From Eledone cirrhosa (lineage: Eukaryota): 64,000 nt of DNA. The notes under the pieces were generated by a model, which was not told where the DNA came from, ran no database searches, and worked only from the letters and a program-made list of their open reading frames with translations. Position 1 is the stretch's first letter; each line of letters opens with the position of its first letter. Shown here piece by piece: positions 45,884-47,103 of the stretch. The stretch lies in assembly GCA_964016885.1 (NCBI GenBank), contig OZ024740.1, positions 73,222,001-73,286,000 on the forward strand. The letters are read 5' to 3'. The translations under genes were made by a program, and so were the position numbers.

Positions 45884-46184
45884 CATATATAAATATATGT
45901 ATGTATATATATATATAAACGGAAAAAATGAAACGAAATTTCATTTCTCACTCTTAGTACGGCTGTTACTTAAATATAAGTATGTATACGTGCATACATA
46001 TATGTATACAGACGTACAGTAGTATGTATATATATACATACATGCACATATATATATATATGTATATATATGTACGTATGGATTTACCGATCATTTATTA
46101 TAATGCTCGGTGTGTTTGTAAACAAACATCCCGAATTAAGCCGTACAGTGTTTAGCAACCATCGTTGCCCTTTTGTTCAACACT

Positions 46185-46249
46185 GACAAAGGAACGATGT
46201 ACTAGTTTCAAGCTTATTAGCTATCGTCAGCACCGTATACCTTCCTGCC
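46185..46249 (-). ncRNA. Intact minimal type I hammerhead ribozyme
   Basis: ACGGUG-CUGACGA-UAGCU AAUA AGCUU-GAAA-CUAG-UA/CAUCGU, with stem I extension GGCAGGAAGG/CCUUUGUC. Confidence 0.9.
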
Positions 46250-46685
46250 AGATGATTGAATGTCTGAAATTATATACTTTCCTTATGCATATTAACGGCT
46301 GAGCAGCCTAATTTGCATATCGAGTGAGTTAATCGGCCGGGCGCACCGAAAACGATAAACGGAAAAAATGAAACGAAATTTCATTTCTCACTCTTACTAC
46401 GGCTGTTACTTAAATATAAGTATGTATACGTACATACATATGTGTATACAGACGTACAGTAGTATGTATATATATACATACATGCACACATATATATATA
46501 TATGTACGTATGGATTTGCCGAACATTTATTATAATGCTCGGTGTGTTTGTAAACAAACACCCCGAATAATGCCGTACAGTGTTTAGCAACCATTGTTGC
46601 CCTTTTGTTCAACACTGACAAAGGAACGATGTACTAGTTTCAATATGCATAAGGAAAGTATATACTTTCAGACGTTCAATCATCT

Positions 46686-46750
46686 GGCAGGAAGGTATAC
46701 GGTGCTGACGATAGCTAATAAGCTTGAAACTAGTACATCGTTCCTTTGTC
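46686..46750 (+). ncRNA. Intact minimal type I hammerhead ribozyme (inverted copy); predicted cleavage after 46735
   Basis: CTGACGA at 46705-46711, GAAA at 46726-46729, palindromic CTAG, GUA triplet; stem I acggtg/catcgt. Confidence 0.9.
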
Positions 46751-47103
46751 AGTGTTGAACAAAAGGACAACGATGGTTGCTGGACACTACGGCTTAATAC
46801 GGGATGTTTGTTTACAAACACACCGAGCATTATAATAAATGTTCGGTAAATCCATACGTACATATATATATGTGTGCATGTATATATATATATATACATA
46901 CTACTGTACGTCTGTATACATATATGTATGTACGTATACATACTTATATATATATATATATATATATATATATATATATATATATATATATATATATATA
47001 TATATATATATATATATATATATATATATACATACATATATATATATATATATATATATATATATATATATATATATATATATATATATATATATATATA
47101 TAT

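What the first reader, a model, noticed from the sequence alone, without database searches (positions are those of the whole stretch)
45915..46947. Best candidate retrozyme: 440-nt tandem monomer with two intact minimal hammerheads
Seen: an exact 440-bp period (45915, 46355); a perfect core CUGACGA/GAAA/GUA in copy 1 and in the inverted copy; stem III reduced to the palindrome CUAG; no ORF; the monomer itself contains (TA)/(TATG) stretches. Established: minimal hammerheads with palindromic loop III cleave as dimers, and tandem retrozyme transcripts are processed into unit-length linear and circular RNA. Inference: this family yields a circRNA of about 440 nt that is copied in trans by a reverse transcriptase.
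Basis: partly seen in the sequence, partly recalled or inferred. Interest (0 to 1): 0.85.

Follow-up and report, generated by a model that had tools for sequence, protein, structure and literature searches.

The report
Penelope-spread hammerhead retrozyme, truncated copy
A 440-base repeat with an intact self-cutting RNA motif and no gene occurs in an estimated thousands of copies in this animal genome, and its broken, back-to-back ends match those left by Penelope-type jumping genes, so it is likely a hitch-hiker on them that would travel as a small RNA circle, a kind of element already known from other animals.

Summary
The repeat and both hammerheads are real, but this is not a dimer of two intact units. 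On the minus strand lie one full 440-nt unit (46354-45915) and a 5'-truncated 289-nt copy that lacks half its ribozyme. An inverted truncated copy (46644-46947) carries the second hammerhead on the opposite strand. Both ends sit in (TA)n: the published Penelope-like element (PLE) insertion pattern. Public reads show a large family (10,960 contigs on 336 bp), a family-wide unit junction with no ORF, 5'-to-5' inversions at many breakpoints, and a G-U to U-G swap in helix I. The ribozyme is a canonical-type type I motif with a palindromic helix III and a U-U at the base of helix II, not a 'minimal' PLE hammerhead. The inverted arm carries alleles of another subfamily, so two RNA templates likely fed one insertion. 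Verdict: a new non-LTR retrozyme family, probably in an octopod, likely mobilised by a PLE. Cleavage, expression and the circle are untested, and this copy is probably a dead end. The scan noted a similar, ribozyme-free architecture in another genome (e1-7881736).

The parts
45887..45914 (.). (TA)-rich flank at the element's 3' end (target side; no target-site duplication can be read in it)
   Evidence: sequence
45915..46354 (-). Full 440-nt unit (copy 1), GC 35.7%, no ORF
45926..45946 (-). 3'-terminal hairpin, shared with the stub at 60665-60708; candidate reverse-transcriptase recognition site (inferred)
45971..46084 (-). (TA)/(TATG) tract that is part of the unit; length varies between the three copies
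46183..46250 (-). Type I hammerhead 1: core 46230-46200; helix I 6 bp plus 6-nt bulge and distal stem; helix II U-U plus 3 bp with a hexaloop; palindromic helix III 46206-46201; predicted cut between 46200 and 46199
   Evidence: family variants
46311..46318 (-). ATGCAAAT, 88 nt upstream of the core; octamer label recalled; candidate promoter element (inferred)
46355..46643 (-). 5'-truncated tandem copy 2 (unit positions 1-297, 94% identical); keeps only GAAA, helix III, the cut site (46632/46631) and the 3' strand of helix I
46642..46644 (.). 5'-to-5' inversion junction with a 2-nt microhomology
   Evidence: (arm 46642-46788)
46644..46947 (+). Inverted 5'-truncated copy (unit positions 377 to 62, 92% identical); carries alleles of another subfamily; lacks the octamer and the last 61 nt of the unit
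46685..46752 (+). Type I hammerhead 2, identical to hammerhead 1; predicted cut between 46735 and 46736
46948..47110 (.). (TA)n flank at the 3' end of the inverted arm
52890..52993 (-). Separate fragment of the same family (unit positions about 60-165, 92%); ends near the same position as the inverted arm
60665..60708 (+). 44-nt 3'-end stub of a related subfamily in (TA)n
   Evidence: same subfamily letters table 5c

Best explanation
This is a truncated insertion of a high-copy, ORF-less 440-nt repeat family with an intact type I hammerhead, likely a non-LTR retrozyme that a Penelope-like element copies in trans, probably from a small RNA circle. Steps: (1, inferred) arrays of the family are transcribed, perhaps from an internal octamer-type promoter. 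(2, predicted) two ribozymes pair through the ACUAGU palindrome and cut after GUA, and a host ligase would close the unit into a ~440-nt circle. (3, inferred from ends that are shown) a PLE protein nicks (TA)n and starts reverse transcription at a fixed internal site 284 nt downstream of the cut site, then runs 729 nt through the cut site twice, which a linear cut-to-cut monomer could not template without a jump. (4, inferred) a second reverse transcription from the other DNA strand copies a different RNA molecule, and the two cDNAs join 5' to 5'. This copy itself is likely a dead end.
For: Locus anatomy is the published PLE pattern: partial tandem plus an adjacent inverted 5'-truncated copy, in (TA)n. 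Family: 10,960 contigs of run X1 and 68,029 of 12,467,656 reads of run X20 lie on 336 bp; rough bracket about 1,000 to 150,000 copies. The unit junction is family-wide: depth does not fall across 46354/46355 in X1 or X20, four listed contigs with 16-19 differences bridge it, and only 453 of 10,960 contigs lie partly on the stretch. 51 X1 contigs end at the unit's 3' end in (TA)n. Of 12 opposite-strand joints shown, 8 are forced 5'-to-5', none is forced the other way, 4 are open. Ribozyme constraint: 46233 C>A and 46197 A>C have near-equal depth in X1 (772,301 and 774,439) and turn G-U into U-G in helix I; N7 and loop 2 vary; 0 of 40 shown variant sites fall in 24 core, helix II and helix III positions (p about 0.04). 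The active dimer scores 6 kcal/mol better than two active-like monomers. Two templates: 3 of the inverted arm's 4 private substitutions in 46085-46211 and its 2-nt deletion match common family alleles, against 0 of 5 for copy 2 (p about 3e-4). Precedent: mussel and axolotl retrozymes give circles, and weak-helix ribozymes cut as dimers; an anole PLE starts internally, cuts AT-rich DNA and extends both strands.
Against: No RNA, cleavage or circle was observed. This locus lacks two consecutive complete ribozymes. Helix II has U-U in place of the usual G10.1-C11.1. Nearest-neighbour folding prefers an inactive monomer (-17.2 against -11.1 kcal/mol), and even the active dimer (-28.2) is above two inactive monomers (-34.4); the helix I pairs next to the core have probability 0.10-0.15 in the circle. 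This model does not score the core or loop contacts. In the anole PLE the ribozyme is not needed for insertion in vitro and no reads ended at its cut site; 8 of 9 Xenopus retrozyme dimers did not cleave in vitro. No autonomous partner was found. One search shows only 40 of 86 variant rows, 15 of 53 joints and 16 of 575 loose ends, and no listed contig spans a whole unit. X20 is reduced-representation data, so its depths are biased.
Confidence: 0.5

Rival explanations
1. Same ORF-less, PLE-mobilised family, but the template is an uncut multimeric transcript; the ribozyme cuts rarely or only with protein help, and no circle accumulates.
For: Predicted inactive fold and weak helices II and III. 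In the anole PLE uncut RNA is the main insertion substrate and the ribozyme needs the protein. 8 of 9 Xenopus dimers did not cleave. More-than-unit copies are explained equally well.
Against: Apparent constraint on the core and the G-U/U-G swap imply a working ribozyme at some step. Every retrozyme host tested by Northern blot in the sections read (coral, mussel, axolotl) had circles.
Confidence: 0.3
2. The 440 nt are only the pseudo-LTR / 3' end of an autonomous 3-4 kb PLE, stacked here by repeated 5' truncation.
For: The insertion pattern is the same as for autonomous PLEs, and pLTRs carry hammerheads. Most loose ends are hidden (559 of 575). Octopus vulgaris has 190 Penelope-like families.
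Against: The junction of unit start to unit end recurs in divergent copies with no fall in depth, and depth does not decline from 3' to 5' across the unit in X1. A second subfamily has the same junction (table 5c). The ribozyme has canonical, not minimal-PLE, architecture. No PLE domain in 92 of 249 candidate frames scanned.
Confidence: 0.12
3. A satellite that arose and rearranged at the DNA level (unequal crossover, fold-back inversion), with the ribozyme inherited passively from an old PLE end.
For: Li et al. propose local tandem amplification of PLE termini. The genome is rich in microsatellites and fold-backs.
Against: Fixed 3' end in (TA)n with variable 5' ends, inversions that are 5'-to-5' wherever they can be oriented, and an inverted arm with alleles absent from its neighbours. 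A local fold-back would copy the neighbours' alleles.
Confidence: 0.08

Closest known systems
Metazoan non-LTR retrozymes (Cervera and de la Pena 2020, PMC7229834): mussel 350-390 bp, axolotl 330/350 bp, coral 220-245 bp
   Same: Short low-GC tandem unit, type I hammerhead, no ORF, thousands of copies, predicted well-paired circle. Helix III resembles axolotl HHR_Amex1 (short, palindromic) and the U-U at the base of helix II is as in HHR_Amex2.
   Different: Both weak features occur in one ribozyme; the unit is at the top of the size range and contains a microsatellite tract; here the insertion ends show the PLE inverted-arm pattern, which the sections I read do not describe for retrozymes; no RNA evidence for this family.
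Non-LTR retrozymes as non-autonomous PLE derivatives (Li, Clavereau, Pollet, bioRxiv 10.64898/2026.07.22.740005)
   Same: Same conclusion about the mobiliser.
   Different: Their evidence is co-occurrence and pLTR homology, mainly in vertebrates, with no mollusc sampled in the text read. Here the evidence is the insertion anatomy, and the partner PLE is not identified. This locus fails their 'active' criterion.
[quoted passage not shown] 2021, PMC8557442; Poseidon PAc, Frangieh et al. 2024, PMC11167929)
   Same: Partial tandem, inverted 5'-truncated copy, (TA)n or AT-rich target, internal start of reverse transcription, hammerhead in the repeat.
   Different: No RT/GIY-YIG ORF; the two 3' ends differ by about 60 nt rather than a 30-40 bp tail; canonical-type rather than minimal hammerhead.
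Newt satellite 2
   Same: Tandem unit with a dimer-dependent hammerhead; reported to have an snRNA-type internal promoter (passage).
   Different: That such a promoter includes an octamer is recalled, not read; here only an octamer match was seen, no promoter was tested.

Membership tests
Non-LTR retrozyme | Tandem unit of about 150-450 bp with GC under 50% | tested here: met
   440 bp, GC 35.7%; junction recurs in divergent copies
Non-LTR retrozyme | Type I hammerhead in the unit | tested here: met
   Core intact, helix I 6 bp, 0 of 5000 shuffles; G-U/U-G swap in the family
Non-LTR retrozyme | No protein-coding frame | tested here: met
   Longest ATG frame 42 aa sense, 57 aa antisense; no Pfam match in the 3 scanned frames that overlap the locus
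Non-LTR retrozyme | Many genomic copies | tested here: met
   10,960 contigs in X1; rough bracket 1,000-150,000 copies
Non-LTR retrozyme | Predicted strongly self-paired circle | tested here: inconclusive
   Circular fold -129 kcal/mol, z -6.7, 0 of 60 shuffles; without the microsatellite z -3.2, but the antisense strand gives -4.6
Non-LTR retrozyme | Transcribed, self-cleaves, forms unit-length circular RNA | not testable with these tools
   No RNA holder listed; no bench assay
Non-LTR retrozyme | No LTR, PBS or PPT; long target-site duplication when present | tested here: inconclusive
   No LTR pair flanks the insertion and both flanks are (TA)n, so no duplication can be read; PBS and PPT not searched
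'Active' retrozyme (Li et al. 2026) | At least two consecutive units, each with a complete hammerhead | tested here: not met
   Copy 2 lacks the 5' half. Applies to this locus; other loci of the family could not be read whole
PLE-mobilised insertion | Partial tandem: full copy preceded by a 5'-truncated copy | tested here: met
PLE-mobilised insertion | Inverted 5'-truncated copy directly at the 5' end | tested here: met
   46644-46947; 8 of 12 shown family joints forced 5'-to-5', 0 the other way
PLE-mobilised insertion | (TA)n or AT-rich target | tested here: met
   Both flanks; 51 X1 contigs end in (TA)n at the 3' end
PLE-mobilised insertion | 30-40 bp optional tail | tested here: inconclusive
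   Two 3' ends about 60 nt apart, the shorter seen in 2 copies; could be TATA microhomology
PLE-mobilised insertion | Autonomous partner sharing the 3' end | not testable with these tools
   No host genome held; pattern scans of the prokaryote, virus and metagenome collections empty
Autonomous PLE | RT plus GIY-YIG ORF between pLTRs | tested here: not met
   No ORF in the unit; unit start joins unit end
Minimal PLE hammerhead (min-HHR, PMC4209133) | Long helix II (7-8 bp), extra base between 9 and 10.1, G10.1-C11.1, short helix I | tested here: not met
   Helix II is U-U plus 3 bp, no extra base, helix I 6 bp with bulged extension

The most novel reading that the evidence does not exclude
An octopod retrozyme family of up to about 100,000 copies whose insertions record the PLE reaction directly: a dimeric PLE protein copies two different RNA circles from fixed internal start sites on the two strands of a (TA)n cut and joins them 5' to 5'. 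The units carry their own octamer-type promoter, and the inverted arms switch off their own ribozymes by forming long double-stranded RNA.
Probability: 0.3. Interest if true: 0.65.

Novelty: new member of a known kind. Interest (0 to 1): 0.42.

Why it matters
How animal retrozymes move is still argued from co-occurrence and pLTR likeness. This family carries the PLE insertion pattern on an ORF-less ribozyme unit, in thousands of natural events with subfamily markers. That makes three questions answerable from one assembly: whether the template is a circle or an uncut multimer, whether the two arms of an inverted insertion come from two RNAs, and which PLE supplies the protein. It would also add a large circular-RNA source and many fold-back double-stranded RNA loci to a genome that is likely cephalopod. 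The class of element is not new.

Tried and rejected
Rfam: 0 matches at gathering score; in the E-value scan of 36000-64000 the best 150 of 398 rows were miRNA-like matches to microsatellites and hairpins with no hammerhead family, 248 rows not shown. No whole genome is held for this window. Exact and gapped patterns for the ribozyme and the 3' hairpin: 0 matches in metagenome, viral and prokaryote genome contigs. RNA: no RNA holder listed. Runs X4 and X6, labelled as other organisms, gave 12 and 10 low-depth contigs with the same alleles as organism A; I do not take this as presence in other hosts, and the 11 other-organism runs with smaller shares that I did not lay are not used. A 7-bp pairing across the unit junction (46322-46328 with 46387-46393) is broken by a common variant at 46327 with no partner change shown: not supported. 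Classic L1 twin priming was considered and rejected: the inverted arm's outer end (unit position 62) does not abut the 5' end of copy 2 (position 297). No pile-up of 5' ends at the cut site is shown, but most loose ends are hidden. The motif at 45809 did not pass my descriptor. A constrained-folding script crashed; fixed structures were scored instead. Earlier-finding look-ups by sequence and place were empty.

Full report
Observation. The window is microsatellite-rich animal DNA. The stretch 45915-46947 holds three related segments. Copy 1 (45915-46354) is a full 440-nt unit. Copy 2 (46355-46643) matches unit positions 1-297 at 94%, with 10 substitutions and an 8-nt indel. A third segment (46644-46947) is inverted and matches positions 377 to 62 at 92%. 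The hammerhead lies on the minus strand in copy 1 (core from 46230, cut before 46199) and on the plus strand in the inverted segment (core from 46705, cut before 46736); the two are identical over 81 nt. Copy 2 keeps only the 3' half of the ribozyme. In the element's own direction the locus is therefore one full unit, preceded by a 5'-truncated unit, joined 5' to 5' (2-nt microhomology) to an inverted 5'-truncated unit, with both 3' ends in (TA)n. My descriptor found 3 motifs in the window against 0.03 per shuffle in 30 shuffles, and none in 5000 shuffles of the unit.

The ribozyme. Helix I has 6 bp, a 6-nt bulge and a distal stem; helix II is a U-U pair plus 3 bp under a hexaloop; helix III is the palindrome ACUAGU. 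By the definitions in PMC4209133 (parts 1-2 of 4 read) this is the canonical metazoan type I design, not the minimal PLE motif. It combines the weak helix III of axolotl HHR_Amex1 and the U-U of HHR_Amex2, both of which cut better as dimers (PMC7229834, parts 2-4 of 6 read). Folding gives the active dimer a 6 kcal/mol gain over two active-like monomers (-28.2 against -22.2), but an inactive monomer fold is lower still (-17.2 each), so fast cutting is not predicted by this model, which ignores core and loop contacts. In a read-through transcript of either strand every base of the ribozyme stretch is paired, and all 11 positions sampled pair with the antisense copy. The only cut this locus could make unaided is copy 1's catalytic half acting on copy 2's site (inference from the dimer geometry).

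The family. No host genome is held, so I laid 4 of 22 listed runs on the permuted unit 46085-46420. In X1, 10,960 contigs lie on it, at summed depths of 0.46-1.8 million at the six positions used, against about 12 for single long records; allowing for up to 31-fold overlap this brackets the copy number at roughly 1,000 to 150,000 (my inference, the tool warns that depth is no copy number; X1 may be the sample the window came from). Depth does not fall at the unit junction in X1 or X20, four listed contigs with 16-19 differences bridge it, and a second subfamily shows the same junction (tables 2, 5c). 51 contigs end at the unit's 3' end in (TA)n. Twelve opposite-strand joints are shown at varied places; 8 must be 5'-to-5', none must be the reverse. 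Among 40 of 86 variant rows shown, none lies in the 24 core, helix II and helix III positions (p about 0.04), N7 and loop 2 vary, and two changes of near-equal depth convert G-U to U-G in helix I. The U-U shows no common variant among those rows, so it is probably the family state.

Two templates. In the stretch shared by all three segments, 3 of the inverted arm's 4 private substitutions (46134, 46152, 46153) and its 2-nt deletion (46145) match common family alleles, while none of copy 2's 5 private substitutions matches a shown allele (p about 3e-4). Copies 1 and 2 share the same state at these sites. The simplest reading is one template for the tandem and another RNA for the inverted arm; later gene conversion is not excluded. 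This fits the anole PLE protein, which is predicted to be a dimer, cuts AT-rich DNA, extends both strands and starts inside its RNA (PMC11167929, parts 1-2 of 4 read).

Mechanism. Shown: the anatomy, the intact core, the family-wide junction, the (TA)n ends, the inversions. Established: partial tandem plus an inverted 5'-truncated copy and (TA)n bias are PLE marks (PMC8557442, passages). Inferred: the cDNA starts 284 nt downstream of the cut site and runs 729 nt through that site twice, so the template was a circle, an uncut multimer, or was switched. I put the circle at 0.5 and the uncut multimer at 0.3. Against the circle: the anole ribozyme is dispensable for insertion in vitro, and 8 of 9 Xenopus dimers did not cleave (bioRxiv 10.64898/2026.07.22.740005, parts 1-3 of 5 read, supplements closed). 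A lead on transcription: ATGCAAAT lies 88 nt upstream of the core, and two other hammerhead-like families in the window have it 98 and 136 nt upstream, against a background of about 1% of positions and 6 sites in the window. This was noticed after the fact and rests on three cases; the inverted arm and the motifs at 41064 and 45809 have none. Newt satellite 2 has an snRNA-type promoter (passage in PMC2220036); the octamer label and its link to such promoters are recalled.

Host and prior art. A neighbouring LINE frame has 14 relatives, and the only one named to an animal is from Argonauta hians at 60% identity, so the host is likely an octopod. Octopus vulgaris has 190 Penelope-like families (6.83% of the genome), 31 recently active, and that paper's main text and supplement never mention hammerheads, ribozymes or retrozymes (PMC13282606, part 1 of 3 plus term searches). 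The giant squid genome paper counts 235 Rfam hammerhead-1 hits without describing them (passage). Searches for retrozyme (30 of 55 listed), octopus + Penelope + hammerhead, cephalopod + hammerhead ribozyme, octopus + hammerhead + ribozyme and the structural terms listed no paper on a cephalopod retrozyme by title or abstract start. The library lacks most subscription papers, Repbase and Dfam were not searchable, and the supplement of PMC7229834 could not be read and may list such a family. PMC5680766, PMC6155905 and PMC2837043 were seen as passages only.

Verdict. A real, probably undescribed family of a known kind: it works like a non-LTR retrozyme and meets the sequence-level features tested, while this locus fails the 'two complete consecutive ribozymes' test for an active copy. 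Its value lies in showing PLE-type insertion marks and a likely two-template origin on an ORF-less ribozyme unit. Interest 0.42.

Noticed in passing
window 41960-42200 (+): A second hammerhead-like family: core at 42127 with G10.1-C11.1, palindromic helix III, one mismatch in helix I, preceded by a 100-bp fold-back with an octamer match in each arm.
   Followed up: partly
window 38680-38900 (-) and 40980-41070 (-): Hammerhead-like motif at 38764 with a long helix II and 8-bp helix I, closer to the minimal PLE type, next to (TA)n; a shorter, decayed look-alike at 41064.
   Followed up: partly
window 45743-45886, 45480-45591, 47104-47221, 47826-47950, 4284-4649, 15289-15404, 59230-59729, 60773-60983: Many short fold-back elements, most next to (TA)n, likely inverted 3' ends of other PLE-type families. 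45743-45886 has a one-armed relative at 61569-61646.
   Followed up: no
window 60665-60708 (+): 3'-end stub of a related subfamily; the 8 bases at its 5' side look like a miniature inverted copy of that subfamily's own sequence.
   Followed up: partly
window 62982-63998 (-), 53760-55234 (+), 2366-2860 (+): LINE remnants: zf-RVT in the first two, RVT_1 in the third; relatives also occur in metagenome records and a bacterial MAG, probably as host contamination.
   Followed up: partly
window 17727-36036: 18.3-kb array of a 33-bp unit (about 560 copies) with extreme strand skew and long open frames reading PTTTTTPPPTT-like repeats; satellite or mucin-like exon.
   Followed up: no
window 50460-51075: 86-bp tandem repeat, 7.2 copies, 99% matches.
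   Followed up: no
window 43850-44100 and 44600-44960: Two copies of a dispersed repeat that begin right after (TATG)n tracts; SINE-like or LINE 3' end, not identified.
   Followed up: no
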